A DNA stretch of 64,000 nt from the IMG/VR virus record IMGVR_UViG_3300025617_000900. The stretch is one strand, 5' to 3'. Positions within the stretch are counted from its first letter, which is position 1. The number at the start of each line of letters is the position of its first letter. The position numbers and the translations under genes were made by a program. Shown here piece by piece: positions 31,224-64,000 of this stretch. The DNA comes from an uncultured virus (IMG/VR IMGVR_UViG_3300025617_000900) (lineage: Duplodnaviria > Heunggongvirae > Uroviricota > Caudoviricetes). The notes under the pieces are model-generated. The model had not been told where the DNA came from. It was given only the letters and a program-made list of their open reading frames with translations, and searched no databases.

Positions 31224-31871
31224 ATGTCATTAACTTTATTAACTTCCGGAACAACAAAAGCACCCAAGACTGTTAATCATACTTGGAGAGATCTAAATAC
31301 TGCTATAGATCGTAGTATTAAAGAAATAGGTCTTACAAGCAACGACATAGTCTTAGACGTCTTTCCTGCTAATACTATTGCACACTATACCATAACTGCT
31401 ATGCCTGCTTACAGGGCTAATGCAACGCTTGTAAGTGCTAAATTTGAAGCTAATTATTATATTAAATTATTTAAAGAAACACAGCCTACTTACATTGCTC
31501 TCATTCCTAGACACTGGGAATTGCTTAAAGAAGTAGATAGCTGGAACAATCTCAATATGTCTAGTGTTCGTTACATGGTTACTGGAAGCGGACCAGTTCC
31601 TCAAGAAATGATAGACGACTTTAAAAGCAAAGGTGTGCAAACTGTTGCTAATTGGTACGGGATGACAGAAATGCCGCCGCCGGTGTTTATAGGTTATAAC
31701 TCTGAAGAATTTGATTTTGAACCAAAAGAAGGTTACGATGTAGACTTTTTAGACGACGGCGAATGTATTATTAATGGATTTGCTACAGGCGATATTTTTG
31801 ATGTACAATCTAAAAAATTTTTAAAAAGAAAACTTAGTAATTCTATTAACAGTACATGGAAGAATATTTAA
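31224..31871 (+). CDS. minimal AMP-binding (ANL) adenylate-forming enzyme
   Basis: LTSGTTKAPK, TGSGP, WYGMTE, ATGD; only 215 aa. Confidence 0.8.
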   Translation: MSLTLLTSGTTKAPKTVNHTWRDLNTAIDRSIKEIGLTSNDIVLDVFPANTIAHYTITAMPAYRANATLVSAKFEANYYIKLFKETQPTYIALIPRHWELLKEVDSWNNLNMSSVRYMVTGSGPVPQEMIDDFKSKGVQTVANWYGMTEMPPPVFIGYNSEEFDFEPKEGYDVDFLDDGECIINGFATGDIFDVQSKKFLKRKLSNSINSTWKNI

Positions 31872-33382
31872 TTGTATATATTCTTCTTTAACCACTGATA
31901 CGTATTCTCGCAACCTGCACTTATCTGCTGATGTTTGTTAAATTCACTTATAAAATAATCATATGTGCGGTTAACGTTATCGTCATCAATATCAGTTCTG
32001 TTCCATGTAGACAAGTCTACACCCCATGCTTTAGCAACCTGTCCCCACAAGAAGTCAGGAAAGCCTGAGGACTGTCCGAATTTAAGTTGTTCAAATTTAT
32101 CTTTAATCATTTCTAAGTGGTTGTCTTTGCGTCCTATCTCTTGCATATCTTTCCAAAAATCAGTATCATCTCTATTGCTAAGGGTGTAGTGAACAATAAT
32201 AAAATCATAGATGTTATCTAATAGACCTGTGATTTTATCATTATAACTCGATAATGATTTTTCTCCTGCAAGCACATCACTTATAGTTTTAATTGATTCT
32301 GTAACTACTAATAATGATGTAGCTTCTAAAGCTTCGACGAATCCAATACTTAGACCAATTAATGCAACGTTACCTTTCGCAGGGGTTTCAATTCTGCCCG
32401 GGGTCCATGAAATTAATCTAGGTTCCATCATTCTGTTATCTGTGCGTTCTTTAAAATATTCTAATACTGCTTCATCTGATACATGCGATGGACTAAAACT
32501 ATAACCAGTTCCCATCCTGTGATACAAGCATACTTTAAATCGCCAGCCAAACGGCTCAGCTATACTTTGAGTATGGTTAACAAGTTCAGTAGTAGGATCA
32601 CCATAGGAACGCTGGCATACCCAAGTTTTCCTTATAGGATAGTCTGCATATTCTTTATACTTCCAACCTAATTTTGTTGCAAGCACACGCCTAAATCCTG
32701 TAGCATCGATAAAGAAGTCGGCAGACTGTGTAGTATCATCTGCTAGTATTAGAGATTTAATAGTATCTCCTTCTGCTACAACATCTTTAACTTCGCCTAA
32801 CACATGTATTACACCGCTTGGTATTGCATGTTTGTCTTTGATAAAGCTTGCTGCTTTTTCTGCGTTTATATGCTGGCTCCAACTATATAACGGACTTAGT
32901 GTATATTCGCCGGTTTTATACGGCATAACATTGTTGTTCATATAATGATATTGTGTATTAAAATACTTGTCAAACTTATCTAGTTTTTCATTAGATAGAA
33001 GATGCATAAGAACATCAGATGTGCTGATCTTATCTTTCCCTAAAAACAATTCAGATACATCTGACTCGGCTGTATTTAATCTAGTAATATCTCTTGGATA
33101 GTTGAAACTCGAATATTCAATCTTATTTTCTTTTGAATTCCAATCTACAAACTTGTTGCCGAATTTGTAGATTGCTCCTGTTTCCTTCATCCAAACTTTA
33201 TCGTCAATGCCCAGCTGTTTAAAAAACTGTGCTACGTGAGGTGTAACAGTTTCTCCAACTCCTATCTTAGGTATGTTTGGAGATTCTATCAATGTAATTA
33301 TTAAATTAGGATGATATTTTGCTAGCCATGCAGCAGCAAACCATCCGGCGGTACCACCCCCTACAATCGTTACTTTTTTCAT
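31868..33382 (-). CDS. tryptophan-halogenase-like flavoprotein
   Basis: IVGGGTAGW, GVGE, A.YK.G..F.DW, FIDATGF, FVEALEAT, DFI..HY..S.R.DT.FW. Confidence 0.9.
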   Translation of the reverse strand: MKKVTIVGGGTAGWFAAAWLAKYHPNLIITLIESPNIPKIGVGETVTPHVAQFFKQLGIDDKVWMKETGAIYKFGNKFVDWNSKENKIEYSSFNYPRDITRLNTAESDVSELFLGKDKISTSDVLMHLLSNEKLDKFDKYFNTQYHYMNNNVMPYKTGEYTLSPLYSWSQHINAEKAASFIKDKHAIPSGVIHVLGEVKDVVAEGDTIKSLILADDTTQSADFFIDATGFRRVLATKLGWKYKEYADYPIRKTWVCQRSYGDPTTELVNHTQSIAEPFGWRFKVCLYHRMGTGYSFSPSHVSDEAVLEYFKERTDNRMMEPRLISWTPGRIETPAKGNVALIGLSIGFVEALEATSLLVVTESIKTISDVLAGEKSLSSYNDKITGLLDNIYDFIIVHYTLSNRDDTDFWKDMQEIGRKDNHLEMIKDKFEQLKFGQSSGFPDFLWGQVAKAWGVDLSTWNRTDIDDDNVNRTYDYFISEFNKHQQISAGCENTYQWLKKNIYN

Positions 33383-33843
33383 AAACGTCTTTTAAGTGTT
33401 GACATAGTTAATACTATTCTAGGCGGATTCGGAATAGTAACACTATGGAAGTTAGCTACATTTAGTCGATGCCAACGTCCTACATCGATAGTATGTTCTT
33501 CGTAAATAGTATCATCTGTTTTATCTGTATGAAATCTAGTCACGCCGTCGCCTGATTTAATAACGTAGTTAAACGCAACGTCTCTTACTTCAAGATTATC
33601 TATGTGTGGCGGAATGTGATCAGATAAAACAAAAATGTGTGCATCGTGTTTAAAATTAAACAGACTGTTTGTAAATTCTTTTAGTTTATCACTAGCATTA
33701 ATACTAGCAAAATGTTTATAGCTAGATGCTTCTGTATTGCCTTTTGAACTGTAACGTTCGCCAATTTCTACTGTGGTTAGAATATCGTCTACTAACTCGT
33801 CAGGAATAGTAGAAAGATGATCTAAATATTCTAGGTTATTCAT
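33379..33843 (-). CDS. cupin/2OG-Fe(II) oxygenase-like protein
   Basis: PPHID...FHSV...RIVL. Start moved to MNNLEY. Confidence 0.65.
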   Translation of the reverse strand: MNNLEYLDHLSTIPDELVDDILTTVEIGERYSSKGNTEASSYKHFASINASDKLKEFTNSLFNFKHDAHIFVLSDHIPPHIDNLEVRDVAFNYVIKSGDGVTRFHTDKTDDTIYEEHTIDVGRWHRLNVANFHSVTIPNPPRIVLTMSTLKRRL

Positions 33844-34399
33844 ACACTGTGTCCAATTCAAATTTATCGTACTCAAAATCTCCAAAGACTCTTATACTCA
33901 TTTGTGTACCTGTTGCATTAGGAAACCCGTGAGGAATACTATCGTTAAAAAATACATTCTTTTCTTTAACTTGAACATCGTCTGGCATTGTCATAGGTAC
34001 TTCTAATTTAGATGCTATAGTTAATGCTAAATTATAATCAAGATTCGTAGGCGTAGACTCATTACTGTCAACATGTATAGGCAATGGCCCAGTTAAAATA
34101 AATGCGCGGATCATTCCTACTGTTTTAATAGGTAAAGATTCTACTAAAGATTTTATATAAGGTATAGTTAAATCATCTCTCCACTTCCACTCTGAGTGCG
34201 AAATGCTTTTTGCTAGTTTAAAATCAGGAAATTCTGCAACGTCATTTGTACGTATCCAAATTGTATTCCAGGAAGTATTAGATTCATGATCTACTCCGCT
34301 ATCCCATAACTCTTTTGGGATAGACTCTAATTCTTGTGTTAGCTGTTTAGTATCGACATCGATATTAACTGCTGCTGCTTTAATATTGTTCCAATCCAT
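33836..34399 (-). CDS. Asp/Asn beta-hydroxylase-like cupin oxygenase
   Basis: PYIKSLVESLP, IHVD...PHG; start after TAAATA-N5. Confidence 0.65.
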   Translation of the reverse strand: MDWNNIKAAAVNIDVDTKQLTQELESIPKELWDSGVDHESNTSWNTIWIRTNDVAEFPDFKLAKSISHSEWKWRDDLTIPYIKSLVESLPIKTVGMIRAFILTGPLPIHVDSNESTPTNLDYNLALTIASKLEVPMTMPDDVQVKEKNVFFNDSIPHGFPNATGTQMSIRVFGDFEYDKFELDTVYE

Positions 34400-34442
34400 A
34401 ACGATATTTATCATGTTAGTCTGGCATATAAATAGCATTATG
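34397..34442. promoter_or_regulatory. divergent TAAATA-N5-ATG pair
   Basis: Minus TAAATA 34410-34405, ATG 34399; plus TAAATA 34429-34434, ATG 34440. Confidence 0.65.
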
Positions 34443-35213
34443 AACTATATAGAAGATAAGTTACAACAGTTTCTTAACAGCACGTTAGTATCAGATGTTA
34501 TGGTAACTAACAGCACTCTTAGTGATTATAATATAAGATATAACAATCTAGACTATTTAAATGATACACTATTTGAAAAAGGGTCTATGATTCATGTTCC
34601 CAACTTTCAAGATTCTCCTAACAGAATATTTATAGGAGCGTATTCAAGTATACGAGACGGTGGCTACATGCGATCTAATATTTTTATGGGAAGACATAGT
34701 GGACTAGGCAGACGTTGTACTGTTGCTGCTGGGATGCACAATATCACTGGCGTTAGTATTAATTCTGACACAATTATGGCAAAGAAGTCAAATTATTCTG
34801 ACGACGAACTTGCTCGATTAAATATTAGAAGAGATCAAACTGATGTAAAAGAAATGAATAGCAAGCCAGTAATTATAGGCAATGATGTTTTTCTCGGAGA
34901 CAACATTATTATAATGCCAGGTGTTACTATTGGCACTGGAAGTGTTATTGCTGCTAATTCAGTTGTATCTCGAGATATTCCGCCGTATGTAGTTGCAGGA
35001 GGAACACCTTGTGTTCCTATTAGAGATAGATTTCCTGATGATGTAAAAGAAATGCTACTAGATACTAAATGGTGGAATGCTAAATTAGACATCTTAAAAT
35101 CTCTACCTGTTGATAATGTATTTCGTTTTGTTGATGAATTTAAAAAGACTAAAGATAATATCGGAGATCAAGTATGGGACTTAATACCTACGTTAGGATA
35201 TACTCATGAATAA
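34440..35213 (+). CDS. hexapeptide-repeat (CatB/Vat-like) O-acetyltransferase
   Basis: IIGNDVFLG, IMPGVTIGTGSVIAANSVVSRDIPPY..AGG.P, KWW. Confidence 0.9.
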   Translation: MNYIEDKLQQFLNSTLVSDVMVTNSTLSDYNIRYNNLDYLNDTLFEKGSMIHVPNFQDSPNRIFIGAYSSIRDGGYMRSNIFMGRHSGLGRRCTVAAGMHNITGVSINSDTIMAKKSNYSDDELARLNIRRDQTDVKEMNSKPVIIGNDVFLGDNIIIMPGVTIGTGSVIAANSVVSRDIPPYVVAGGTPCVPIRDRFPDDVKEMLLDTKWWNAKLDILKSLPVDNVFRFVDEFKKTKDNIGDQVWDLIPTLGYTHE

Positions 35214-36006
35214 TTGGATAGCTACTGTTGATTTAGATTTAATGACTGCATCCGATAACGACTTATTAGAGTTAGTTAAGCTATGTGCCATTCATACTTG
35301 CGTTAAAATACCTAGTCAAAAGCTTACAATAGAACGAGAAGCTGAAATTGTAAAGTCTTTTCCTAACCCGTATGTGCTGTTTACACCTGATAGTCCAAAC
35401 TTTGAGCGCAGTGCTCTAGACGCTGAAGGATATATAGGACTCGTGTCTGAAAATAGTATAGCAGGACACAAAGAAGAAATGTTATGGCACAACGAAAGTC
35501 CACATGCTAGATTGGGGTCTAGTGTTGCTTGGTTGTATGGCGAACAAGGTATGGAAGGCAGTACAACAGTATGGAATAATACTTTGCTTGCATATGCTGA
35601 CTTAGACTCTGATACAAAAGAAAAAATAAAAGATTTAAAGTGTATAACGTTTGGCAATGTTAATCATAGCGTAGCACGAACAGACGAAAACTTTAAAAAT
35701 AGATCTATATACAATAACGTTCCTACTCCGCTAATACAAACTAACTATGCAGGAAAAACAGGATTATTTTTAAGCTTGCATCAGTTTGAACGATTTGAAG
35801 GAATGACTAGAGAAGAAAGTTTAGAGATAGCAGAACCTTTATTTGATTTTATCACACAAGACAAATATTGCTATACACATCAGTGGAAAGACGGTGATGT
35901 TTCACTAAGTGATCAATGGTTAGGAGTACATCGAAGACTGGAGTTTAGTAAAATGCAGGATAGAATTGTGCATCGAGCTACTTTTGATTATCCGGCTTTT
36001 GTATAA
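35206..36006 (+). CDS. TauD/TfdA-family dioxygenase
   Basis: LWHNE, G.T...NT..AY..L, H.WK.GD...D....HRR. Confidence 0.85.
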   Translation: MNNWIATVDLDLMTASDNDLLELVKLCAIHTCVKIPSQKLTIEREAEIVKSFPNPYVLFTPDSPNFERSALDAEGYIGLVSENSIAGHKEEMLWHNESPHARLGSSVAWLYGEQGMEGSTTVWNNTLLAYADLDSDTKEKIKDLKCITFGNVNHSVARTDENFKNRSIYNNVPTPLIQTNYAGKTGLFLSLHQFERFEGMTREESLEIAEPLFDFITQDKYCYTHQWKDGDVSLSDQWLGVHRRLEFSKMQDRIVHRATFDYPAFV

Positions 36007-36724
36007 CAAAACTTTGATTTTCTAAAGGTTCTAGCGTAACAGCATATAGTTTCCAATTGTTAATTACAACAAATTCGTGTACTGCACTCATTACTCCGTA
36101 TGAAAACCCATTTGATACACCAACCTGAAAGTAGTCATGACCTGAGATGAATCCGCCTGGTTTTATTTTATCTGCAAATGAATTTAGTTCTGCTTTGGTT
36201 CTTTCATACGTGTGAGTAGTATCTATATAGATCCAATCAAAATACTCGTCATTAAACAAATTTCCTGCTTCTGCAGAGTCTATTTGATGTATTTCTATGT
36301 TTTCTTTTTTACCTAGTATACTGTTCACTGAATTTAATTGATAATCGAATTGAAAAATATCAATAAGATGTAACTTTTGTGGTTGTGTAACCTCGTATAT
36401 ACGTTCTGCAAAACGACCTCTATCAACACCTATCTCTGCTACTACAGCATTTTTTGGCATTTGTCCTAGTAAACTCATACGGTCGAGAATTGCTTTACAG
36501 CCATCTACATGATGCGGTTCAAGAAACCGTAAAGTTTTAATAGAATCAAAAATTCTTTGATCAGTTTTACTATCAAATAGTTTACCTAAGTATTCGTCAA
36601 AAAACTTATCAATATCTTCTATATGACCTATTTTAAAAGATCGAGTTTTTTCTTTAAAAGCATCTATATGCTGATGTAAATCTATCTTTAGCTGTTTTAA
36701 AAACTCTTCTGCACTTTCTTGCAC
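35978..36724 (-). CDS. class I SAM-dependent methyltransferase (Methyltransf_24-like)
   Basis: AEIGVDRG, FDWIYID..H.Y, GGFISGHDY. Confidence 0.88.
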   Translation of the reverse strand: MQESAEEFLKQLKIDLHQHIDAFKEKTRSFKIGHIEDIDKFFDEYLGKLFDSKTDQRIFDSIKTLRFLEPHHVDGCKAILDRMSLLGQMPKNAVVAEIGVDRGRFAERIYEVTQPQKLHLIDIFQFDYQLNSVNSILGKKENIEIHQIDSAEAGNLFNDEYFDWIYIDTTHTYERTKAELNSFADKIKPGGFISGHDYFQVGVSNGFSYGVMSAVHEFVVINNWKLYAVTLEPLENQSFVIQKPDNQK

Positions 36725-36737
36725 AACTTACCTCACT

Positions 36738-55918: not shown

Positions 55919-55947
55919 ATTGTAACACCGTGTTTAATAAATGTCAA
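55919..55947 (-). promoter_or_regulatory. sigma70 promoter, probably giving a leaderless mRNA
   Basis: TTGACA-N17-TACAAT on the minus strand, then 6 nt, then ATG 55912. Confidence 0.7.
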
Positions 55948-58392: not shown

Positions 58393-59403
58393 TTAAATAT
58401 TGTTTATATAGTTATATAAGTGTTTTGCAAATAAGTCATGTCCTTTCTGACTAGGATGCGAACACGGTGTCATCCATCCGTTATATGAACCTTTTCCTAA
58501 AAACTGAAAATAATGATCATGTTTATCATCTAACTTATCTTCTTGAGCAATAACTAAGTCAGCAAATGTAGTGTGTCCGTCAGGTTTAAACATGTTGTTC
58601 CATGGAAATAACTCCAACAAATTTGTTTTATCTGATGCAGACTTGCTTAGGATAGGCTTGGTAGATTTTACAAATAACTCATCTTTTCTTGTTACTTCTT
58701 TTGATAAACATTCTCGAAAATAGTCCTTGTCGTATCTTCTATCAAAACCCGGTGTAATTATTAATTTTGCCTTTTTAGACTTACACCAAGACATTAGTTC
58801 TTGCACATGGGCAAGTTGTTCTATTACCTCAAATTTATCACTTGACAGAGTTTTAGCATACCCTTCCCATAGCGTTTTACGCGGACTCTCTTCCATATCT
58901 TTATAATGGGGCCACATGCATTTCCAATTAAAATGGTCAACTGCTACATCATTAACAAAATCAAATCTTTCAAGACCGCTAGGCATATATAGCACTATAA
59001 TTTCTTTTAATTCGTTATAGTTAATTTCAGGATACATATATAATTCTTTGATTGACGCTCTATTGCCACATCCTCGAAGTCCTAGATTAATTGGAGTATA
59101 TTTTCCGTTAAAATACTTGTTGCACAAAACACTAACAAAGGCATTTTTGTATTCCATCATAGTAAAATCCATTCCATGCATTGAATTGGAAACACCTTGA
59201 TAATTTTTTGATATTCTTTTACGCTCTTTTGAAGATGCATCTATAACAAGTGGAAGTCCTTCAGTATACTTCCATTTAAAATTTTCATATAGCTCATCAT
59301 CAAATGCGCCTTGGCCTTGTACAAAGGAACACCCAATTGCAATAATGGCCCTTTTAGTATTTTTTAAATCTTTGTTTATTCTAGTAACTTGCGATTTATA
59401 CAT
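58393..59403 (-). CDS. SGNH/GDSL-like hydrolase or acyltransferase
   Basis: IGCSFVQG, INLG..G.GN, HPS..GH..FA. Confidence 0.75.
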   Translation of the reverse strand: MYKSQVTRINKDLKNTKRAIIAIGCSFVQGQGAFDDELYENFKWKYTEGLPLVIDASSKERKRISKNYQGVSNSMHGMDFTMMEYKNAFVSVLCNKYFNGKYTPINLGLRGCGNRASIKELYMYPEINYNELKEIIVLYMPSGLERFDFVNDVAVDHFNWKCMWPHYKDMEESPRKTLWEGYAKTLSSDKFEVIEQLAHVQELMSWCKSKKAKLIITPGFDRRYDKDYFRECLSKEVTRKDELFVKSTKPILSKSASDKTNLLELFPWNNMFKPDGHTTFADLVIAQEDKLDDKHDHYFQFLGKGSYNGWMTPCSHPSQKGHDLFAKHLYNYINNI

Positions 59404-60719
59404 TATGTTTCCTTATCGACATAATCTTCTATAACTTTTAAATACGGTGAAGGATGTTTATTAGTCCTAGACTTTAAAATGTTATAATTATGATTTAAAA
59501 TATCTTCTAAGCCTCGAAACCATTCTAATTTATCATCAACAGACATACTGTTTATTCTAGAAATTTCATTAGTAATTGCTTGCATACGTGGCCAAGTACT
59601 TAATTTATCATAACTTTCATCGATAAAGGGACTAAATGTTTTATAGCCTAATTCACGCAATCTAGATAAAGATCCTTTGTTTCCAGCTATTATAAAAGGA
59701 TGACAGCATGCTATAGGTTTAAATGTTTTTTCACTAAGAAAACATTCGTGCTCACTGTCTCCAAACGATGCTTCGCTAACAACTGTAACCCAGGTGTCTA
59801 ACATTATTTGTTCGTTAAACATAGTCAAATAGTTTCCGCAATCGTGATCGGCAAATTTTTTTAATCCTGAGTTGTTCGGAGGTAGTAACGGTAATTTACC
59901 AATTATATTAGAATAGTCGCTTTCTGTCATTGTTTTGTCTTCGTAGTAAGACTGATTCAATTTAAAGACATTCATACTGTTTATTCCACAGTCTAATAAT
60001 CCAGCATCTGATAGATGCTTAAAAAACCAAGCACGATGAGCTCTTGGGCGCTTCTGTAATGCACTATATGTTTTTATGGTAGACAAGTTAGTTTCTTTAT
60101 ACGTTAATTGTTGTTCAAAATTTGGATATGTATCAGTTGCAGCATGGGATAAAATGTTTGCAATCGAAGTTTCAAAATGTGGATAAGGAACTACAAAAAT
60201 TTTATTATCTGGAAGTCGATCTTTAGCCCAGTTATTATATTGATCTCTACTATCTAAATTGCCAGTAACATATATAATTTGCGTAGGAGGTATTCTATAC
60301 TTTTCAAGATTATTGTGAAACCATGCCCAAAGCCATTCGGTTTGATACCCTTCATGACACTGATCTATTAGTAAGTATGCATTTTTTCGGCTTAATGATT
60401 TACGTTGTTTTTTACTTAGGTGTCCAAATAAAGTAACTCTATTAGGATTTTCTTTATCAAGACCTAACCCAGTATCGTCTGGACCGCACCAATCCCACGG
60501 GGCATGGGCTACACCAGTTGCAATAATATGTTTCTGATTTTTTTCTCGAGTTGTAGAGAATGTGTGGTATCCGTGTTCTTGTTGTCCTCGACGCTGATGA
60601 TAATCAATTACGATAGGACTAGGAGTAAATCTACGTATTCCGGATAGATTTTTATCACGGCATTTAATAAAATTTGTAAATAATCCGTGCGTGCCTATAG
60701 ATTCGAATAAAAAATGCAT
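59403..60719 (-). CDS. glycosyltransferase-like protein (GT10-like C-terminus)
   Basis: R.HR, VVSE, FLSEKTFKPI...PFI..G...L..LR..GYKTF...DESYD. Confidence 0.65.
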   Translation of the reverse strand: MHFLFESIGTHGLFTNFIKCRDKNLSGIRRFTPSPIVIDYHQRRGQQEHGYHTFSTTREKNQKHIIATGVAHAPWDWCGPDDTGLGLDKENPNRVTLFGHLSKKQRKSLSRKNAYLLIDQCHEGYQTEWLWAWFHNNLEKYRIPPTQIIYVTGNLDSRDQYNNWAKDRLPDNKIFVVPYPHFETSIANILSHAATDTYPNFEQQLTYKETNLSTIKTYSALQKRPRAHRAWFFKHLSDAGLLDCGINSMNVFKLNQSYYEDKTMTESDYSNIIGKLPLLPPNNSGLKKFADHDCGNYLTMFNEQIMLDTWVTVVSEASFGDSEHECFLSEKTFKPIACCHPFIIAGNKGSLSRLRELGYKTFSPFIDESYDKLSTWPRMQAITNEISRINSMSVDDKLEWFRGLEDILNHNYNILKSRTNKHPSPYLKVIEDYVDKET

Positions 60720-61721
60720 TTAAATTAACCGATCCGTCCATGTTTTTGGAGTTTTGTAATTTACAATCTCTAGTGGAAATGTGTAGTCAAACGGCTTTGT
60801 GCCTCGTTTTTTAATATAGTCAACAGTATATTCAACTGCTGTTTCTAAATTGGTAGTTGTTTTATAATTTAATAACTTGCGAGCTTTATCTGCACTACAC
60901 ATTGCATGTTTAACTTCTTGAGGACGGTCATCGACATGTATAGGATCTAAATTACAACCTGTTTTATTGGCTACTAGTTTTGCTAAATTTTTGATATTTA
61001 TTGTTCCTTCATCTGGTCCAATATTTACTATTTGGCTTGATATATTTTTATCTAATGCGAGTTTTTCAAGACACTGAATACAGTCATCAATGTAACTAAA
61101 GCATCGTGTTTGTTCGCCATCGCCGTATATAATAGCAGGATTGCCTTGTAAATTTCTATTGATCATAATACTCATTACATTTCGGAATGGATCATCATAA
61201 CGCTGCCTTGGTCCAACAATGTTGTGCGGCACAGCAATATTCCATTCCATACCGTGTACTTCACTTAGCGTAGTCAGTACTTGTTCGCCTGCTACTTTAG
61301 CAATGCCGTAAGGATCAACTGGGGCAGGTGTCTGTGTTTCAACAAACGGAATCTGTTGATTTCCGTAACGTGCCATACTAGTACAGTATACAAAACGTTT
61401 TACCTTGTTTTCAAGTGCTGCACTAATTGTAGATACCGTTGCTTGAAATATATTCTTAGTAATAAAATCTGGGCTTACTACACTTAGACCTTCATGAGCA
61501 GTTGCAGCAGTGTGTATAACAATATCTATATCTTTCATTATATCTGCCATGCGTTCTCTGTCGCAACAATCTACTTTGTACAAAGTAGCTTTGTGATGTA
61601 CATTATCCTCATAACCGCCAATCAGTGTATCGTTGCCAGATACTTCGTGACCAAGTTCTATCATACGATCTGCTAAATGACTTCCTAGAAATCCTGCAAT
61701 GCCTGTTATAAAAATTTTCAT
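60720..61721 (-). CDS. NAD-dependent nucleotide-sugar epimerase/dehydratase
   Basis: TGIAGFLGS, YGIAK, N.VGP, GDGEQTR.F.Y. Confidence 0.93.
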   Translation of the reverse strand: MKIFITGIAGFLGSHLADRMIELGHEVSGNDTLIGGYEDNVHHKATLYKVDCCDRERMADIMKDIDIVIHTAATAHEGLSVVSPDFITKNIFQATVSTISAALENKVKRFVYCTSMARYGNQQIPFVETQTPAPVDPYGIAKVAGEQVLTTLSEVHGMEWNIAVPHNIVGPRQRYDDPFRNVMSIMINRNLQGNPAIIYGDGEQTRCFSYIDDCIQCLEKLALDKNISSQIVNIGPDEGTINIKNLAKLVANKTGCNLDPIHVDDRPQEVKHAMCSADKARKLLNYKTTTNLETAVEYTVDYIKKRGTKPFDYTFPLEIVNYKTPKTWTDRLI

Positions 61722-63118
61722 AGTTTTCCTAAATTTTGTTCACTTGCTAAAGACTTACAATGATTCCAAAAATTATCCATTTCAGGAAAAGTTTCTAAAA
61801 AGTTTGTATTTCTTCTACGATCCATCTCTGTAAACCAATTATAAAAATCTGCACGACCTTCTTGTACTCGGGTTTCGTCATAATTAGCTGTTGCAAAGTA
61901 ATCTCGAACTCGACGAAACTTTTGATATTCTAACTCTGTAAATTTGGTCGGATCGTAATCGTCTTTGTTATCGTTAATAAATTGTAAAATTTTATCAAAA
62001 TACGGCAAAAATTCTTCTTTTGGTAAAATCATCATATCATACTGTAAAGGTTCTTTTAAATACGGTGTGTCAAATCTAATGCGCCGGCCATATCCTCCTG
62101 GATTCATTGTTGGTTGATATTTTGTTCGCCAGTCTAAAATCTTTTGTAAAAAATCTGTAAACGAAGTCACACTTAAAATATTAAATGTACACATAATACT
62201 AACAGGTGCATTTGTAGTTGCTATATAGGTTTCTAAATTTTGTTCCCACAACTCTGTTTTAAGTCCAGTACGAATATATTCGGCTTTTTTGCCCCAAGAG
62301 TCTAAACTTGAAAATAATTTAAAGTTTTTAATCTTTTTATTTTCCACTAGGCTTTTTACATTTGTTGCTAGTTTTTCTACAAGTGCTGGCTTAACACCTA
62401 GATTGCTATTTAAATTTAATTCTAATTTAGGCTTTGCTTCTTCTTGTAAAAGGTCAAATAGTCTCCAAGTACTACGGTGCATCAAAGGTTCGCCGCCGGT
62501 GAGACGTAAAATGTTTAGTGTTTTACTAACTTCTGGCCACCATTTCCACCAAGCAGCAATATACGGATTTTCTTCTTCAGCATATGGTTTAAACCAGTCA
62601 ACATTTAATGTATGATTTTTAACTGGCATTGGCCCGTGTTTTTTTATTTCTGCATCATACGAACTACTTGCCATAGGATGACAGTATCCACATTTAAAAT
62701 TACATTCGTTACTAAACGCCAATTCAATATATTCAGGATTAATATTAAAATCCCAAGGACTATTAACAATTTCTTCTAATCTATGCTGATTATAAATGCC
62801 TGCATTACGTTCGTGCCTATCACTAATATGTGTATCACTAAGACCTTCAACATTCCAGCAGTATTGACAGCCTTTGGGCTTTTCGCCTACCAGCATTAAA
62901 GCACGTTCTTTTTTCTTTTCTATCGTATTATGAAGTGCAGAAGGATCCTTTTCAATTTCTTCAAGAGGTATATGATGAGGTGCTGGATGATAACAACTAT
63001 GTGTGTCACCAGTATGCAAATAAATTGTAGTATGATGCCACTTTGCTAAACAGAAAGTAGGACTAATCTTATTTGTAATCTCTTTAGTTTGTGTTATTCT
63101 GTCAGTTTCATTACTCAT
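61718..63118 (-). CDS. radical SAM protein, paralog of 55944-57464
   Basis: CLAKW, SCYHP, CQYCW, CNFKCGYC, LTGGEPL. Confidence 0.9.
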   Translation of the reverse strand: MSNETDRITQTKEITNKISPTFCLAKWHHTTIYLHTGDTHSCYHPAPHHIPLEEIEKDPSALHNTIEKKKERALMLVGEKPKGCQYCWNVEGLSDTHISDRHERNAGIYNQHRLEEIVNSPWDFNINPEYIELAFSNECNFKCGYCHPMASSSYDAEIKKHGPMPVKNHTLNVDWFKPYAEEENPYIAAWWKWWPEVSKTLNILRLTGGEPLMHRSTWRLFDLLQEEAKPKLELNLNSNLGVKPALVEKLATNVKSLVENKKIKNFKLFSSLDSWGKKAEYIRTGLKTELWEQNLETYIATTNAPVSIMCTFNILSVTSFTDFLQKILDWRTKYQPTMNPGGYGRRIRFDTPYLKEPLQYDMMILPKEEFLPYFDKILQFINDNKDDYDPTKFTELEYQKFRRVRDYFATANYDETRVQEGRADFYNWFTEMDRRRNTNFLETFPEMDNFWNHCKSLASEQNLGKL

Positions 63119-63999
63119 AGTTTTTCTATAAACCTTTGATTGTCAGTTCTTGACGGATGCTGGTACACTGCTTTAAAAAATTTACTTTGCTGTGCATCTA
63201 ATGGTTGTTCTGCGATAGGTATATCTAGTTGACTGATTAACTTAATACCGTATTCTTCAATTTCATAATCGACATCTTCAATTGATTCAAACGACACTTT
63301 CCATAAATCGTTCAAGTATTCAAAGTCACGTACTTGCACGTAATCCCAGTCTGTACACATTGTCATATACAATCCTGCTCGTGTTCCAAGTATTGCCCAG
63401 TCACCGTTTTCTACATCTTTGCCTATCATACTCCATATGTATAGCCAGTGCAAGCAACGCCAGTGATTATTCTTTAGTTCTTCTTTTGAAATTCTTACGC
63501 CGCGATCAGTTGCAAGTTTAACACCTTCTCTAAAACCTGCTCTCCATGCTTGTGCAGGAGTTTCGTTGTTGTACACGTCAGAATAACAACTATTCATTTG
63601 AATGTATTGTGCATCCCAGCAAAAGTCTACTTGAGCATGTGCATTATCAGGGTCTGCATTTTCATGTGTTTTCATATTCAATACATACTCACGAGGCCAA
63701 CATTTAAGTCCGCCGTTGCCGTACATTAGTCCATTAATCTCATTACGGCCGCACCAGCTGATAACAGTATTTTTCAAATCTGCATGTTCATCGAAGTCAA
63801 TTTCTTGATTTAAAAAATCTTCACGTATACGGTTGTCACCGTCTACTGTAATAAATCTATCTGTCTCGCTTAGTTCTGCACAAGCTTTGTGTGCGGCGTC
63901 TGAGCCTTCTACACCGTGTACACGTTTAGCCCACGGAACTTTTTTACACAAGTCAGCGTAGTTTTTTTCTGCATTAGGTTCGTCATAACTAAGATAGAT
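63115..63999 (-). CDS. GT-A-type glycosyltransferase-like protein, 5' end outside the window; paralog of 55238-55912
   Basis: Frame open to the window edge (IYLSYDEPNAEKNY...), AHKACA, VDGD, YGNGGLK, WRAGFREGVKL. Confidence 0.72.
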   Translation of the reverse strand: MYLSYDEPNAEKNYADLCKKVPWAKRVHGVEGSDAAHKACAELSETDRFITVDGDNRIREDFLNQEIDFDEHADLKNTVISWCGRNEINGLMYGNGGLKCWPREYVLNMKTHENADPDNAHAQVDFCWDAQYIQMNSCYSDVYNNETPAQAWRAGFREGVKLATDRGVRISKEELKNNHWRCLHWLYIWSMIGKDVENGDWAILGTRAGLYMTMCTDWDYVQVRDFEYLNDLWKVSFESIEDVDYEIEEYGIKLISQLDIPIAEQPLDAQQSKFFKAVYQHPSRTDNQRFIEKL

Positions 64000-64000
64000 A

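What the first reader, a model, noticed from the sequence alone, without database searches (positions are those of the whole stretch)
31224..64000. 33-kb phage island of tailoring enzymes with no scaffold synthase: candidate virion/protein decoration system
Seen: about 36 consecutive genes, nearly all enzymes. They comprise 11 radical SAM, about 10 cupin/2OG oxygenases, a halogenase-like flavoprotein, an adenylating enzyme, 2 methyltransferases, acetyl/SGNH acyl enzymes, 3 GT-like proteins, a sugar dehydrogenase and epimerase, 2 kinase-like proteins and a PP-loop ATPase. No NRPS, PKS, terpene synthase, transporter or obvious precursor peptide is present. The island starts right after a fibre gene and carries late-type TAAATA sites. 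Inference: the substrate is a macromolecule, such as virion proteins and their glycans or the host surface, elaborated combinatorially. This far exceeds typical auxiliary metabolic genes.
Basis: partly seen in the sequence, partly recalled or inferred. Interest (0 to 1): 0.85.

Follow-up and report, generated by a model that had tools for sequence, protein, structure and literature searches.

The report
Radical-SAM sugar-tailoring island beside phage fibres
A marine giant phage carries, next to its tail-fibre genes, a 33-kb block of soluble tailoring enzymes whose conserved core recurs in hundreds of uncultured phages and most likely builds an unusual, heavily modified sugar coat, but the product and its target are still unknown.

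Summary
Window 31224-64000 holds 37 tightly packed ORFs (99.5% coding). Eleven are radical SAM (rSAM) enzymes. It also holds a halogenase, TauD, sugar-nucleotide enzymes and a PP-loop ATPase, and no NRPS, PKS, transporter, membrane protein or room for a precursor-peptide gene.

Corrections: 6 cupin/2OG oxygenases are supported, with 1 further lead, not about 10. Kinase-like proteins are unverified. TATAAATA/TAAATA sites are not enriched.

The island is not chimeric, and its core is not unique to this phage. A core of rSAM genes plus g27, often with g30, g21 and g20, recurs in most of 76 related viral loci, including two complete ~360-kb phage genomes.

Models show g30 with a GT-A-type nucleotide-sugar transferase fold and g27 with a class I methyltransferase fold. 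In 52 of 120 long homologues, x01/g30-type and g27 domains are fused as GT-GT-methyltransferase. This is the architecture of chlorovirus A064R, which builds capsid glycans.

Relatives add UDP-glucose dehydrogenase, sugar aminotransferase, carbamoyltransferase and amidotransferase genes.

Best reading (0.42): a soluble pathway makes and transfers a radical-tailored glycan, probably onto virion proteins. Rivals are a small nucleoside or sugar metabolite, direct protein modification, and DNA modification.

The island sits where pelagimyophage "host recognition clusters" lie. I rate it a new variant of a known kind.

The parts
29946..31154 (+). Left flank: fibre-like or receptor-binding protein (402 aa)
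   Evidence: Pfam Mtd_N 7.8e-12. Weak PHROG tail-fibre hit 8.4e-4. TATAAATA 30 nt upstream. A 37%-identical homologue adjoins g12/g15/g14 homologues in L006.
31174..31201 (+). Terminator-like hairpin plus T-run that closes the fibre-like gene
   Evidence: 12-pair stem, the strongest of 13 sites found (10.1 expected by shuffles), so weak on its own.
31224..31871 (+). g01: short AMP-binding (adenylation-core) protein, 215 aa
   Evidence: Pfam AMP-binding 9.3e-20, covering profile positions 169-330 of 384 only. The 212-226 aa form recurs in 2 loci.
31868..33382 (-). g02: flavin-dependent halogenase family
   Evidence: Pfam Trp_halogenase 5e-83; phrog_2928 3.4e-94. Homologue found in 1 of 78 loci.
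33379..34438 (-). g03 (33379-33885) and g04 (33836-34438): unknown
   Evidence: No family hit, even at E<=1. No homologue in the 78 loci.
34386..35213 (+). g05: hexapeptide-repeat acyl/acetyltransferase
   Evidence: Hexapep 2.2e-9; Vat/CatB-type NCBIfam 2e-27, below cut-off.
35206..36006 (+). g06: TauD/TfdA-family 2OG dioxygenase
   Evidence: Pfam TauD 5.1e-23.
35978..36724 (-). g07: class I methyltransferase (Methyltransf_24)
   Evidence: Pfam 1.2e-13.
36738..37292 (-). g08: unknown conserved family
   Evidence: Found in 17 of 76 loci. Only a weak FeeM hit, 0.045.
37285..37965 (-). g09: unknown, paralogue of g16
   Evidence: blastp 2.6e-12 to g16. Family found in 22 of 76 loci. TATAAATA 19 nt upstream.
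38029..40130 (+). g10 (38029-39075) and g11 (39072-40130): tandem rSAM proteins with an N-terminal Zn ribbon (Tes/TrsS/HMPTM type)
   Evidence: Zn_ribbon_HMPTM 6e-15 and 7.5e-16 plus Radical_SAM. The two are 51% identical. Rare in relatives, 2 loci.
40120..40929 (+). g12: unknown; possibly AspH-like (lead only)
   Evidence: Atlas feature score 0.95 with 192 shared features to a viral Asp_Arg_Hydrox cluster. hhalign to the g20 family <1%. Found in 12 of 76 loci.
40931..41539 (+). g13: unknown
   Evidence: No hit.
41536..42554 (+). g14 (41536-42033) and g15 (42030-42554): AspH-like cupin/2OG oxygenase paralogues
   Evidence: Weak Asp_Arg_Hydrox hit, 0.005. Invariant HxD...H in 28 sequences. hhalign probability 92% to the g20 family.
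42551..43243 (-). g16: unknown, paralogue of g09
43263..43868 (+). g17: AspH-like cupin
   Evidence: It clusters with L048:18845-19504, which hits Asp_Arg_Hydrox at 1.2e-12.
43868..44455 (+). g18: AspH-like cupin, paralogue of g14/g15
44452..45996 (-). g19: B12-binding rSAM (methylase-type)
   Evidence: Radical_SAM 6.8e-15; B12-binding 3.2e-4; PhpK-family 3.1e-17, below cut-off. Found in 6 of 76 loci.
45993..46655 (-). g20: 2OG-dependent beta-hydroxylase-like protein
   Evidence: The family profile hits PDB 7v4f 'Beta-hydroxylase' at 7.1e-20 and L-proline cis-4-hydroxylase at 2.9e-5. Found in 27 of 76 loci.
46680..47372 (+). g21: PP-loop ATPase with a QueC-like C-terminal Cys cluster
   Evidence: Invariant SGGxDS and C192, C213-x2-C216-x2-C219 in 29 sequences. 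phrog_1550 2.8e-8. Does not reach QueC/TilS NCBIfam cut-offs. Found in 23 of 76 loci.
47305..48627 (+). g22: N-terminal-twitch rSAM (NF033640)
   Evidence: 328 bits against a cut-off of 170. CxxxCxxC and four N-terminal Cys are invariant.
48593..50480 (.). g23 (48593-49525, +) and g24 (49509-50480, -): small rSAM proteins, paralogues of g29
   Evidence: Radical_SAM 1.5e-11 and 5.8e-13. Paralogy shown. Family found in 69 of 76 loci.
50477..51883 (-). g25: N-terminal-twitch rSAM (NF033640)
   Evidence: 379.8 bits. Used as the query that found 585 viral stretches.
51876..52949 (-). g26: rSAM
   Evidence: Radical_SAM 3.4e-5; several NCBIfam rSAM hits below cut-off. Found in 66 of 76 loci.
52942..53580 (-). 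g27: class I SAM-methyltransferase-fold protein
   Evidence: AF2 model pLDDT 92.6. At least 500 Foldseek PDB matches at E<=1e-3, all listed rows SAM-dependent enzymes of this fold (nearly all methyltransferases), top 1.3e-10. Found in 63 of 76 loci. Fused to x01/g30-type domains in 52 of 120 long homologues.
53537..54271 (-). g28: short UDP-glucose/GDP-mannose dehydrogenase-like protein, 244 aa
   Evidence: UDPG_MGDP_dh 1.9e-24. It keeps GYGFVG and GFGGHCFPKD but lacks the C-terminal domain. The 244-253 aa form occurs in 4 other loci.
54268..55278 (-). g29: best-conserved small rSAM
   Evidence: Radical_SAM 3.4e-13. Up to 82% identity in relatives and 46-52% in Bdellovibrionales loci.
55238..55912 (-). 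g30: GT-A-type (nucleotide-diphospho-sugar transferase fold) protein with a DxD-like 'DGD' motif
   Evidence: AF2 model pLDDT 90. VIA Z 10-11.7 over residues 1-137 to B4GALNT1, WrtF, ThuS/SunS and IspD. Foldseek hit to PBCV-1 A064R-D1 (2p6w) at 3.5e-4. D57 and D59 invariant.
55944..57464 (-). g31: N-terminal-twitch rSAM (NF033640)
   Evidence: 314 bits; 35% identical to g36.
57461..58384 (-). g32: possible SGNH/GDSL esterase (weak)
   Evidence: NCBIfam GDSL_LA_2486 4.9e-4. Found in 10 of 76 loci.
58393..60719 (-). g33 (58393-59403) and g34 (59403-60719): unknown
   Evidence: No family hit. g34 has 714 homologues, all unnamed and without Pfam, and is found in 15 of 76 loci.
60720..61721 (-). 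g35: NAD-dependent sugar-nucleotide epimerase/dehydratase
   Evidence: Pfam Epimerase 3.8e-46; GDP_Man_Dehyd 5e-39.
61718..63118 (-). g36: N-terminal-twitch rSAM (NF033640)
   Evidence: 309.7 bits.
63115..64000 (-). g37 (= x01, 305 aa, start codon beyond the window end at about 64032): paralogue of g30
   Evidence: blastp 1.1e-33 to g30. Full length read in L001. It forms the first domain of the fused homologues.

Best explanation
The region is the enzyme-rich part of a hypervariable, fibre-linked region in an uncultured marine T4-superfamily giant phage. It is a mosaic of modules.

The conserved core (about 46.7-64.0 kb) is a fully soluble pathway. Sugar-nucleotide enzymes supply the feedstock: the short UDP-sugar dehydrogenase-like g28 and the epimerase/dehydratase g35. 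Relatives add full-length UDP-glucose dehydrogenase, a DegT aminotransferase, carbamoyltransferase and Asn-synthase-type amidotransferase.

Three sets of enzymes then tailor the sugar or the growing glycan. The first is a battery of radical SAM enzymes: four N-terminal-twitch paralogues, four smaller ones and a B12 type. The second is the AspH-like 2OG hydroxylases. The third is a QueC-like PP-loop ATPase, possibly amidating a carboxylate.

Two GT-A-fold transferases (g37/x01 and g30) and a methyltransferase-fold protein (g27) then assemble and cap the glycan on a cytoplasmic acceptor.

I think the most likely acceptor is a virion protein (fibres or capsid), at about 0.25-0.3 absolute. A host envelope precursor is next, at about 0.12.

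The left 5.5 kb (g01-g07: halogenase, TauD, acyltransferase, methyltransferase, mini-adenylation protein) is a separate accessory cassette.

Shown: the gene content, the folds of g30 and g27, the fusions, the conservation and the flanks. Inferred: the sugar substrate, the order of steps and the acceptor.
For: Phage identity and position:
- DNA polymerase is 42-50% identical to Phosso, Atu_ph07 and Rak2-like giant phages.
- The right flank in the phage's own contig holds fibres, a 5121-aa virion protein, baseplate wedge and hub genes, and a gp55-like late sigma factor.

Not chimeric:
- An independent metagenome contig (run X7, 2821 nt, 108 differences) spans 31100-33920.
- L006 keeps a fibre-like homologue next to g12/g15/g14 homologues.
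- The core occurs in two records rated 100% complete, of 357 and 364 kb.

Conserved core:
- 585 of 698 pattern-matched viral stretches encode an N_Twi relative.
- In the 76 loci examined, the g23/24/29 family is in 69, g26 in 66, g27 in 63, g30/g37 in 28, g20 in 27 and g21 in 23.

Glycan chemistry:
- g30 has a GT-A-type fold (Z 10-11.7) with invariant D57 and D59.
- g27 has a class I methyltransferase fold.
- 52 of 120 long homologues are x01-(x01/g30)-g27 fusions, and 48 more are two-domain x01/g30 fusions.
- This architecture is the same as PBCV-1 A064R (GT-A, GT, class I MTase; soluble; builds the capsid N-glycan terminus). I read passages of PMC9614988.

Sugar enzymes recur beside the core in relatives. 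UDP-glucose dehydrogenase is in 13 loci, DegT aminotransferase in 9 and the epimerase family in 6. Among the 42 large ORFs scanned, carbamoyltransferase is in 2 loci, an Asn-synthase-type protein in 2 and a GT7-lectin fusion in 1.

One cultured bacterium has an N_Twi rSAM next to NDP-hexose 2,3-dehydratase and FdtA (L085).

No membrane protein or transporter, and 99.5% coding with no free space for a precursor gene.
Against: - No enzyme here has a characterised close homologue. rSAM matches to solved structures are generic (MoaA, SkfB, viperin; E 1e-6 to 1e-2).
- The GT-A fold is shared with nucleotidyltransferases (IspD and MobA are among the top Z values). TM-scores to true GTs are only about 0.4.
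- The g20 family's best solved relative, Cpz10, hydroxylates a small nucleoside-antibiotic intermediate.
- AspH-type enzymes and SPASM/twitch rSAMs often act on proteins or peptides.
- No acceptor is identified.
- Fibre adjacency is not universal. In G003 the main cassette lies more than 100 kb from the Collar-domain genes.
- In Bdellovibrionales chromosomes, N_Twi arrays sit in housekeeping contexts. In the 12 unannotated neighbour ORFs tested there, no GT, MTase or cupin partner was found.
- Expression timing is unknown.
Confidence: 0.42

Rival explanations
1. Small-molecule pathway. The core makes a diffusible or intracellular modified nucleoside, sugar-nucleotide or aminosugar metabolite, for example an inhibitor or a signal used during infection. 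The GT-A-fold proteins would act as nucleotidyl- or glycosyl-transferases on a small acceptor.
For: - The g20 family's closest solved homologue is Cpz10 of caprazamycin biosynthesis, 7.1e-20 (listing and abstract only).
- Weak BlsE (cytosylglucuronate decarboxylase) similarity of N_Twi rSAMs.
- The enzyme mix (UDP-sugar dehydrogenase, aminotransferase, carbamoyltransferase, ATP-grasp, methyltransferase, halogenase, acyltransferase, mini-adenylation protein) is typical of nucleoside or aminoglycoside tailoring. That typicality is my own knowledge.
- IspD/MobA-type nucleotidyltransferases tie with GTs in fold Z.
Against: - No exporter, resistance or regulator gene, and no membrane protein.
- The GT-GT-MTase fusions resemble glycan builders.
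- Position in a fibre-linked hypervariable region.
- Paralogue number varies from 2 to more than 7 N_Twi per locus. That fits diversification of a surface structure better than a fixed metabolite.
Confidence: 0.17
2. Direct protein or peptide modification without a glycan. rSAM (SPASM/twitch-type) and AspH-like hydroxylases would cross-link, epimerise, methylate or hydroxylate virion proteins such as fibres, or a peptide encoded elsewhere.
For: - Pfam SPASM hits on g22 and g25, and weak NCBIfam hits to many RiPP maturases.
- AspH-type hydroxylases classically act on protein Asp/Asn (my own knowledge). Six such cupins are present here.
- The cassette lies in one same-strand run with fibre genes x08-x10, with gaps of 66 nt or less.
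- A small conserved ORF, x05 (116 aa), is present in 5 loci.
Against: - No precursor-size gene fits in the island: 159 non-coding bases.
- No RRE, leader peptidase or transporter family.
- All RiPP-maturase hits are far below their cut-offs.
- This reading does not explain the GT-A-fold/MTase fusions or the recurrent sugar-nucleotide genes.
Confidence: 0.13
3. Nucleic-acid hypermodification. The enzymes would elaborate a base in phage DNA (or tRNA) after replication, with DNA as the 'scaffold'. g30/g37 would act as DNA glycosyltransferases and g21 as a QueC-like 7-deazapurine enzyme.
For: - Tailoring clusters without a scaffold synthase are what phage DNA hypermodification loci look like (PMC8989533, search listing and abstract only).
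- g21 has QueC-like motifs.
- FolE and a QueE-like rSAM lie upstream at 21.1-22.8 kb.
- ThyX lies near the core in 10 loci.
Against: - No hydroxymethylase, 5-hmdU kinase, aGPT-Pplase or TGT/DpdA family in the island or window at the thresholds used.
- Of 5 cassette-bearing records, 0 have a TGT family match. The complete G003 has no ThyA-family gene at all.
- No FolE or QueE homologue within +/-10 kb of the core in any of the 78 loci.
- g21 does not reach the QueC model cut-off.
Confidence: 0.1
4. Host-surface remodelling. The soluble enzymes would feed unusual sugars into the host's own lipid-linked polysaccharide machinery, changing the cell surface during infection (superinfection exclusion). 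This was proposed for pelagimyophage host recognition clusters.
For: Passages of PMC7029224 propose this for fibre-linked glycosyltransferase and LPS genes, and mention radical SAM cassettes there. LPS-type genes lie upstream (heptose-type adenylyltransferase-like protein, PMM, epimerase at 10.7-12.8 kb).
Against: - No polyprenyl-phosphate transferase, flippase, polymerase or any membrane protein in the island.
- The phage is a large lytic-type myovirus. No integrase was seen in the 64-kb window plus the 43 kb of its contig that I read.
- This rival overlaps the best explanation in chemistry and differs only in the acceptor.
Confidence: 0.12

Closest known systems
Host recognition cluster (HRC) of pelagimyophages and cyanomyophages (Zaragoza-Solas et al. 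2020, PMC7029224; passages read)
   Same: [quoted passage not shown] Here too the region adjoins fibres and a giant virion protein next to the baseplate and varies between strains.
   Different: - That paper names no conserved core and no enzyme families for the rSAM cassettes.
- This phage's polymerase is closest to Phosso, Atu_ph07 and Rak2-like giant phages.
- The left flank here is the replication module, not the neck gene gp14.
- I did not test whether the 5121-aa protein is VrlC.
Chlorovirus PBCV-1 A064R and the virus-encoded capsid glycosylation machinery (PMC9614988; passages read)
   Same: Soluble, virus-encoded GT-A domain, second GT domain and class I methyltransferase domain in one protein. 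Of 120 long homologues of g30, 52 have x01-(x01/g30)-g27 in that order. A064R-D1 (2p6w) is among the Foldseek hits of the g30 model.
   Different: - Similarity is at fold and architecture level only (TM about 0.4, 13-15% identity).
- In this window the three domains are separate genes.
- Chloroviruses have no radical SAM battery.
- No glycan has been seen on any of these phages.
NF033640 'twitch domain-containing radical SAM protein' (NCBIfam subfamily)
   Same: g22, g25, g31 and g36 score 310-380 bits against a cut-off of 170. They have the CxxxCxxC motif and four conserved N-terminal Cys.
   Different: My searches found no characterised member or substrate. The phage copies occur as 2 to more than 7 paralogues per locus, together with GT/MTase partners. 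Those partners were not found among the 12 unannotated neighbour ORFs tested in four bacterial array loci.
Phage DNA hypermodification clusters (thymidine hypermodification, PMC8989533; 7-deazaguanine systems, 10.1101/2023.04.13.536721; listings and abstracts only)
   Same: Tailoring-only clusters with rSAM, methyltransferase, acetyltransferase and PP-loop (QueC-like) enzymes and no scaffold synthase.
   Different: The defining genes (hydroxymethylase, hmdU kinase, aGPT-Pplase, DpdA/TGT) were not found.
Mycobacteriophage virion glycosylation (Che8-type; Freeman et al. 2023, seen only as a reference entry, otherwise recalled)
   Same: Phage-encoded GT-A glycosyltransferases act on virion proteins. 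A Che8 glycosyltransferase model is among the viral fold hits of g30 (TM 0.41).
   Different: Those systems have a few GTs only and no rSAM or 2OG battery. The similarity is at fold level.

Membership tests
NF033640 N-terminal-twitch radical SAM | Score above the curated cut-off (170 bits) over the full model | tested here: met
   g22 328, g25 379.8, g31 314 and g36 309.7 bits, all near full length.
NF033640 N-terminal-twitch radical SAM | CxxxCxxC SAM-cluster motif plus Cys ligands of an N-terminal auxiliary cluster | tested here: met
   C162-x3-C166-x2-C169 and C29, C48, C104, C107 are invariant in the 4 paralogues. Pfam SPASM hits at residues 27-87 and 29-107. Cluster binding itself was not tested.
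Fibre-linked hypervariable 'host recognition cluster' of T4-like marine myophages | Contains or adjoins tail-fibre genes in the structural region | tested here: met
   Mtd_N protein on the left. On the right, Peptidase_G2/IMC and Collar fibres, then a giant virion protein and the baseplate.
Fibre-linked hypervariable 'host recognition cluster' of T4-like marine myophages | Non-syntenic and variable between close relatives | tested here: met
   Module order and content differ among the 78 loci. A contig in run X4 joins 31154 to 36739, skipping g01-g07. This is weak: one contig, 28 letters on the shorter side.
Fibre-linked hypervariable 'host recognition cluster' of T4-like marine myophages | Lies between VrlC and neck gene gp14 | tested here: inconclusive
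   A 5121-aa phrog_10938 virion protein lies next to the fibres, but its identity with VrlC was not tested. The other flank is replication genes, not gp14.
Virus-encoded glycan-building GT-GT-methyltransferase (A064R-like) | GT-A fold domain with a DxD motif | tested here: met
   g30 model pLDDT 90 and Z 10-11.7 to GT-A enzymes. Nucleotidyltransferases score equally, so the activity is inferred. D57 and D59 are invariant.
Virus-encoded glycan-building GT-GT-methyltransferase (A064R-like) | Class I SAM methyltransferase domain linked to the GT domains | tested here: met
   g27 model pLDDT 92.6 with a methyltransferase fold. Fused after x01/g30-type domains in 52 of 120 long homologues. In this window the genes are separate.
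Virus-encoded glycan-building GT-GT-methyltransferase (A064R-like) | A glycan is present on a virion protein | not testable with these tools
   The phage is uncultured and no proteomic data are at hand.
RiPP biosynthetic cluster | Precursor peptide gene with leader, RRE-containing maturase, peptidase or exporter | tested here: not met
   159 non-coding bases, and no free small ORF other than two inside a 63-nt gap. No RRE, peptidase or transporter family. All maturase hits are far below their cut-offs.
Phage DNA hypermodification cluster | Base-activating enzymes (pyrimidine hydroxymethylase, hmdU kinase, aGPT-Pplase) or DpdA/TGT | tested here: not met
   None in the island or window. TGT is in 0 of 5 related records. 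A ThyA-family gene above cut-off is in 1 of 5 and absent from the complete G003.
QueC (7-cyano-7-deazaguanine synthase) | PP-loop SGGxDS, C-terminal Zn Cys cluster and a score above the model cut-off | tested here: inconclusive
   The motifs are present. No QueC model hit at E<=0.01, only phrog_1550 'QueC-like' at 2.8e-8. The QueC motif pattern is recalled from memory.

The most novel reading that the evidence does not exclude
Marine giant phages carry a radical-SAM-based glycan diversification system. Expanding arrays of N-terminal-twitch rSAM paralogues (2 to more than 7 per genome), together with AspH-like hydroxylases and a QueC-like amidating enzyme, would rewrite sugars. Phage GT-GT-methyltransferase enzymes would then place these sugars on fibre or capsid proteins. 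This would give each phage lineage its own virion 'glyco-coat' that tunes adsorption or shields the particle. It would be the first radical-SAM-tailored virion glycan and would assign a substrate class to the NF033640 family.
Probability: 0.2. Interest if true: 0.85.

Novelty: new variant of a known kind. Interest (0 to 1): 0.62.

Why it matters
Phage genomes seldom carry more than a few radical SAM genes. Here eleven sit in one island. Their core is conserved across hundreds of uncultured marine phage contigs, yet it is almost absent from 50,697 sequenced phage records: 3 weak hits.

If the core builds a virion or cell-surface glycan, three things follow. It would open a new area of phage glycobiology. 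It would give a first function to a large uncharacterised rSAM family. And it would explain part of the hypervariable 'host recognition' regions of abundant ocean phages.

Even if the product is a metabolite or a modified base, the cassette is a compact, soluble source of new radical chemistry that can be tested by heterologous expression.

Tried and rejected
- Megablast of 24.8 kb of the island against phage records gave no match. No whole genome is held for the window. There were no earlier scan notes.
- Profile searches against PDB sequences gave nothing for the g27, g30 and g12 families. The g14/15/18 and g21 families gave only insignificant rows.
- hhalign of g12, g08 and g09/g16 against the g20 family gave <1%. 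Thirty-two single unknown proteins against A5/A8 gave nothing above 20%. This test is insensitive: TauD was missed too.
- Pfam at E<=1 on 23 unknowns gave only noise. Pfam on 12 long fused homologues gave only low-complexity or coiled-coil noise.
- Twelve unknown ORFs beside Bdellovibrionales arrays, compared with A2-A9, gave nothing above 30%.
- An exact search for the 31.2-kb junction in viral contigs found nothing.
- RNA run X3 gave identical contigs over parts of 26.0-31.1 kb and over 42420-42669, but none over 31.3-36.7 kb. These are contigs of a library that may hold DNA, so I draw no conclusion on expression.
- Sigma-70-like and terminator-like sites are no more frequent than in shuffles (90 against 77±8, 87 against 85±10, 10 against 10.8, 13 against 10.1). 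Two 11-of-12 promoter-like matches fall in rare gaps upstream of g30 and x05. I treat them as leads only.
- I first took g28 and g01 for pseudogene fragments. I rejected that because the motifs are kept and the short forms recur in relatives. I also first guessed that g27 was the missing C-terminus of g28. Its methyltransferase fold rules that out.
- Papers: PMC12619734 (moraphages) has nothing on rSAM. Pyle et al. 2024 is not held. Searches found no description of this cassette beyond the two mentions in PMC7029224. That paper's supplementary tables were not read and may list such genes.

Full report
**What the window is.** The left half of the window (1-31 kb) is a phage replication module. 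It holds a family-B DNA polymerase at 7949-10618. Its best tblastn matches are Sinorhizobium phage Phosso (49.8%), Agrobacterium phage Atu_ph07 (45.1%) and about 350-kb Rak2-like phages (about 42%). All 2670 matching records are under 60% identity. PHROG and Pfam also find a 5'-3' exonuclease, a MoxR-like ATPase with a DUF2201/VWA partner, GTP cyclohydrolase I, a QueE-like rSAM and a small sugar-nucleotide cluster. No whole genome is held. The window's last 10.1 kb is 100% identical to two IMG/VR contigs, and one of them, G007 (54 kb), continues 43 kb further.

**What lies to the right.** Beyond the window, that contig holds seven small or unknown genes (x01-x07) and then three fibre-type proteins. 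x08 has a Peptidase_G2 intramolecular-chaperone domain. x09 shares an N-terminal module with x08. x10 has a Collar domain. After them come a 5121-aa virion structural protein (phrog_10938), baseplate wedge and hub-lysozyme genes, a gp55-like late sigma factor and SbcCD-like genes. The phage is therefore an uncultured marine T4-superfamily giant phage. The finding lies between a fibre-like gene on the left and the fibre/baseplate module on the right.

**Checking the observation.** I numbered 37 ORFs g01-g37 in 31224-64000. They cover 99.5% of the region. Only 159 bases are non-coding, in seven gaps, the longest 63 nt.

Pfam, NCBIfam and PHROGs give eleven radical SAM proteins:
- g10 and g11: Zn_ribbon_HMPTM plus an rSAM core, Tes/TrsS-like, 51% identical to each other.
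- g19: B12-binding type.
- g22, g25, g31 and g36: NF033640 'N-terminal twitch' rSAM, 310-380 bits against a cut-off of 170.
- g23, g24 and g29: small paralogues.
- g26.

The same scans give a Trp-halogenase-family flavoprotein (g02, 5e-83), a 215-aa AMP-binding core (g01), a hexapeptide acyltransferase (g05), TauD (g06) and Methyltransf_24 (g07). They also give a 244-aa UDP-sugar dehydrogenase-like protein (g28), an epimerase/dehydratase (g35) and a PP-loop ATPase (g21). No NRPS, PKS, terpene synthase or transporter family appears. A hydropathy scan finds no membrane-type segment except one borderline stretch in the halogenase.

Six cupin/2OG oxygenases are supported:
- TauD (g06).
- g20, whose family profile hits PDB 7v4f 'Beta-hydroxylase' at 7.1e-20 and L-proline cis-4-hydroxylase at 2.9e-5.
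- g14, g15 and g18, with an invariant HxD...H motif and hhalign probability 92% to the g20 family.
- g17, which clusters with a protein that hits Asp_Arg_Hydrox at 1.2e-12.

g12 is only a lead, with an Atlas feature score of 0.95 to a viral Asp_Arg_Hydrox cluster. No kinase family was found. The SGNH call (g32) rests on one hit at 4.9e-4.

**The 'late TAAATA sites' do not stand.** TATAAATA occurs 2 and 5 times on the two strands, and TAAATA 33 and 35 times. These are at or below my composition-based estimates. Over 107 kb of window plus contig, only two TATAAATA sites precede a gene start, against 0.46 expected by position. They precede the fibre-like gene and g09. None precedes the fibre or baseplate genes. 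Sigma-70-like and terminator-like sites are at chance level. The one strong hairpin plus T-run, at 31174-31201, closes the fibre-like gene.

**Is it a chimeric join?** GC content in the island (0.32-0.39) overlaps that of the replication half (0.34-0.42). No IMG/VR contig holds the exact junction. However, a 2821-nt contig from an independent metagenome run (X7) lies on 31100-33920 with 108 differences. It bridges the end of the fibre-like gene, g01 and g02. A more distant relative, L006, has a 37%-identical fibre-like gene next to g12, g15 and g14 homologues. The core genes occur in two records rated 100% complete, of 357 and 364 kb. I therefore reject a join with cellular DNA.

One contig in run X4 joins 31154 directly to 36739, that is, the stop of the fibre-like gene to the stop of g08. 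This would be a strain lacking g01-g07. It rests on one contig with 28 letters on the shorter side, so it is a weak hint. It does agree with the rarity of g01-g07 homologues in relatives, at 0-2 of 78 loci each.

**The main new result: a conserved core.** Of these, 585 encode a relative, and the best 80 (78 distinct loci) were kept.

I mapped the window's proteins on these loci. I then clustered all ORFs de novo in 76 loci. L003 was dropped because it is identical to the window, and L068 because it duplicates L067.

| Family | Loci (of 76) |
|---|---|
| N_Twi rSAM (193 genes) | 73 |
| g23/g24/g29 | 69 |
| g26 | 66 |
| g27 | 63 |
| g30/g37/x01 | 28 |
| g20 | 27 |
| g14/15/18 | 23 |
| g21 | 23 |
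| g09/g16 | 22 |
| g08 | 17 |
| g34 | 15 |
| g12 | 12 |

These are lower bounds, because loci are cut at +/-10 kb and many contigs are short. The loci were also chosen for having an N_Twi gene, so its own count is by construction.

The recurring order is g30-g29-g27-g26-g25-g24-g23-g22-g21-g20, with variable insertions. Some loci hold six or more N_Twi-like genes. The complete genome G002 has 7 above cut-off between 167 and 190 kb, and G003 has 5. Among 50,697 deposited phage records, only three have weak matches to g25 (22.9-24.7% identity). The island is thus a mosaic:
- An accessory left block (g01-g07).
- A cupin-rich block (g08-g20).
- The core (g21-g30).
- A right block (g31-g37) with two more N_Twi rSAMs, the epimerase and the g30 paralogue.

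**What the non-rSAM core proteins are.** Profiles of the g27 and g30 families found nothing in PDB by sequence.

AlphaFold models built from 32- and 28-sequence alignments are confident, with pLDDT 92.6 and 90.0. The g27 model is a class I SAM-methyltransferase fold. It has at least 500 Foldseek matches at E<=1e-3. All listed rows are SAM-dependent enzymes of this fold, nearly all methyltransferases, and the top hit is DnrK at 1.3e-10.

Residues 1-137 of the g30 model align with GT-A-type enzymes at Z 10-11.7: B4GALNT1, WrtF, ThuS/SunS and a Leptospira GT. IspD and MobA nucleotidyltransferases share that fold and score equally. Foldseek lists the PBCV-1 capsid-glycosylating GT domain (2p6w, 3.5e-4) and polypeptide GalNAc-transferases. 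The viral library lists many viral glycosyltransferases, including one from mycobacteriophage Che8. The g30 family has invariant D57 and D59 in a 'DGD' motif. g37/x01 is a paralogue of g30 (1.1e-33).

**The fusions.** A search for longer homologues of g30 returned 2580 proteins. Of the 120 listed:
- 35 are x01-x01-g27 and 17 are x01-g30-g27, about 890-900 aa each.
- 34 are x01-g30 and 14 are x01-x01.
- The other 20 have repeated g30/x01 pieces.

Natural fusions therefore tie the two transferase-fold proteins and the methyltransferase-fold protein into one functional unit.

The same three-domain order (GT-A, second GT, class I methyltransferase; soluble) defines chlorovirus PBCV-1 A064R. That enzyme adds two rhamnoses and a methyl group to the N-glycan of the virus's major capsid protein. 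I read passages of PMC9614988. This is a resemblance of fold and architecture, not of sequence.

**Other chemistry around the core.**
- g21 has an invariant SGGxDS PP-loop and a C-terminal Cys cluster (C192, C213-x2-C216-x2-C219). I recall this cluster as QueC-like. g21 reaches no QueC or TilS model cut-off. I infer a carboxylate-activating or amidating role.
- g28 keeps the Rossmann GYGFVG and the catalytic GFGGHCFPKD motifs but lacks the C-terminal domain. The short form recurs in four loci. g01's short form recurs in two. So neither looks like random decay.
- In relatives, the neighbourhood adds several sugar-linked families: full-length UDP-glucose dehydrogenase (13 loci), DegT-type sugar aminotransferase (9), more AspH-like proteins (9), epimerase/dehydratase (6), GDSL esterase (6) and an Fe-S assembly protein (3).
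- Among the 42 large ORFs scanned, the neighbourhood also adds carbamoyltransferases (2 loci), Asn-synthase-type amidotransferases (2), an ATP-grasp protein and GT7-lectin fusions.
- Most of these are enzymes that act on sugar nucleotides or glycans.

**Cellular relatives.** In 185,579 species genomes the scan found 56 related stretches (46 loci), mostly in Bdellovibrionales MAGs and chromosomes. Several have tandem arrays of 4-7 N_Twi genes (L090, L082, L089). They sit in ordinary chromosomal surroundings such as DnaG, FtsH, phosphoglucomutase, sigma-70 and an Asn synthase. Among 12 unannotated neighbour ORFs in four of these loci, none matched the phage GT, MTase or cupin families. In the cultured Poseidonocella sedimentorum, an N_Twi gene lies 1.9 kb downstream of NDP-hexose 2,3-dehydratase and FdtA, which is a deoxysugar context. 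Solved-structure matches for the rSAMs are generic (MoaA, SkfB, viperin, BlsE).

**How it most likely works.** In my best reading, sugar-nucleotide enzymes provide a UDP-hexose or uronic-acid pool. The rSAM battery, the 2OG hydroxylases and the PP-loop enzyme carry out radical and oxidative tailoring on the nucleotide sugar or the growing glycan. Candidate reactions are C-methylation, epimerisation, deoxygenation or dehydration, decarboxylation, hydroxylation and amidation. g37/x01 and g30 then transfer the sugars, and g27 methylates the end, all in the cytoplasm. None of these steps is shown.

Three observations point to virion proteins as acceptor:
- The position between fibre genes.
- The same-strand, tightly packed run of 24 genes from x10 to g24, with gaps of 66 nt or less.
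- The A064R analogy.

Fibre linkage is not universal, however. In G002 a Collar gene lies 10.3 kb from the first N_Twi gene. In G003 one N_Twi gene lies 10.4 kb from Collar genes, but the main cassette is more than 100 kb away. x01-x06 homologues adjoin the core in L006, L013, L056, L060, L073 and L078.

**Rivals.**
- A small nucleoside or sugar metabolite fits the Cpz10 relationship of g20. PMC9814697 was seen as a listing and abstract only. It also fits the natural-product-like enzyme mix, but there is no exporter or immunity gene.
- Direct protein or peptide modification fits twitch/SPASM rSAMs and AspH-type hydroxylases. However, the island has no room for a precursor gene and no RiPP accessory families. 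This reading also leaves the GT/MTase fusions and sugar genes unexplained.
- DNA hypermodification fits the 'tailoring without scaffold' look and the QueC-like g21. Against it, no hydroxymethylase, hmdU kinase, aGPT-Pplase or TGT/DpdA family was found in the window. None of 5 cassette-bearing records has a TGT match, and the complete G003 has no ThyA-family gene.
- Host-surface remodelling was proposed for pelagimyophage HRCs (PMC7029224). It shares the chemistry of my best reading, but it lacks any membrane-linked enzyme here.

**Comparison with what is known, and novelty.** The general phenomenon is in print. Zaragoza-Solas et al. describe a large hypervariable 'host recognition cluster' in pelagimyophages and cyanomyophages. 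It holds fibres, Mtd-type domains, glycosyltransferases and LPS-type genes, and they mention radical SAM gene cassettes twice (passages read).

Five full-text searches found no description of the following:
- The conserved multi-rSAM core.
- Its GT-A/MTase partners and their fusions.
- Its spread over hundreds of viral contigs.
- The Bdellovibrionota arrays.

Supplementary tables of that paper were not read. I therefore file the finding as a new variant of a known kind. It is interesting for rSAM enzymology and phage glycobiology, but its product and target remain unproven.

Noticed in passing
window 20281-23308: Partial 7-deazapurine-type gene set in the replication module. It holds a phosphoribosyltransferase (20281-20823), GTP cyclohydrolase I (21145-21828) and a QueE-like rSAM (21935-22831, phrog_2076 1.5e-51). 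No TGT/DpdA or QueD family hit was found in the window.
   Followed up: partly
window 4972-6576 and 10724-17472: A second enzyme cluster sits next to the DNA polymerase. It holds a B12-binding rSAM (4972-6576), a cytidylyltransferase-like or heptose adenylyltransferase-like protein, a phosphomannomutase, an epimerase, a GFO_IDH_MocA oxidoreductase and an ADH-like protein. Sugar-nucleotide capacity is therefore not confined to the island.
   Followed up: no
L090, L082, L089, L093, L096, L108 (Bdellovibrionales genomes): There are tandem arrays of 4-7 N-terminal-twitch rSAM genes in chromosomes of predatory Bdellovibrionales. They lie among housekeeping genes. In L090 the array is next to an asparagine synthase. 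Their function and their relation to the phage copies are unknown.
   Followed up: partly
L104 ('Fischerella' MAG contig) and L102 (Pelagibacterales MAG contig): L104 carries homologues of the window's u29-u33, x01, x03, x04, x08, x09, g30 and g36 in phage-like order. L102 carries g31, g23, g34 and epimerase homologues. Both look like phage contigs binned into bacterial MAGs.
   Followed up: no
L127:3216-18581 (about 9.6-25 kb beyond the window's right end): A single 5121-aa ORF matches phrog_10938 'virion structural protein' (3.6e-301 over its first 4000 aa). It lies between the fibre genes and the baseplate wedge gene. It may be the counterpart of VrlC, but that was not tested.
   Followed up: no
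window 31154-36739: One contig of an independent metagenome run (X4) joins the stop of the fibre-like gene to the stop of g08, with 1-3 letters between. This suggests a co-occurring strain without g01-g07. Another X4 contig replaces 35930-35988 with 2179 other letters.
   Followed up: partly
window 25899-28410: A MoxR-like AAA ATPase (phrog_1297, 3.9e-98) is followed by a DUF2201_N/VWA-like protein that PHROGs labels 'HNH endonuclease'. The pair recurs next to the cassette in L065 and L104.
   Followed up: no
window 55913-55943 and L001 13505-13570: Two of the few intergenic gaps in the long minus-strand run hold 11-of-12 sigma-70-like matches, including TTGACA-17-TACAAT with an upstream TG before g30. 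Overall counts are at chance level. If real, the core would have its own early-type promoter.
   Followed up: partly
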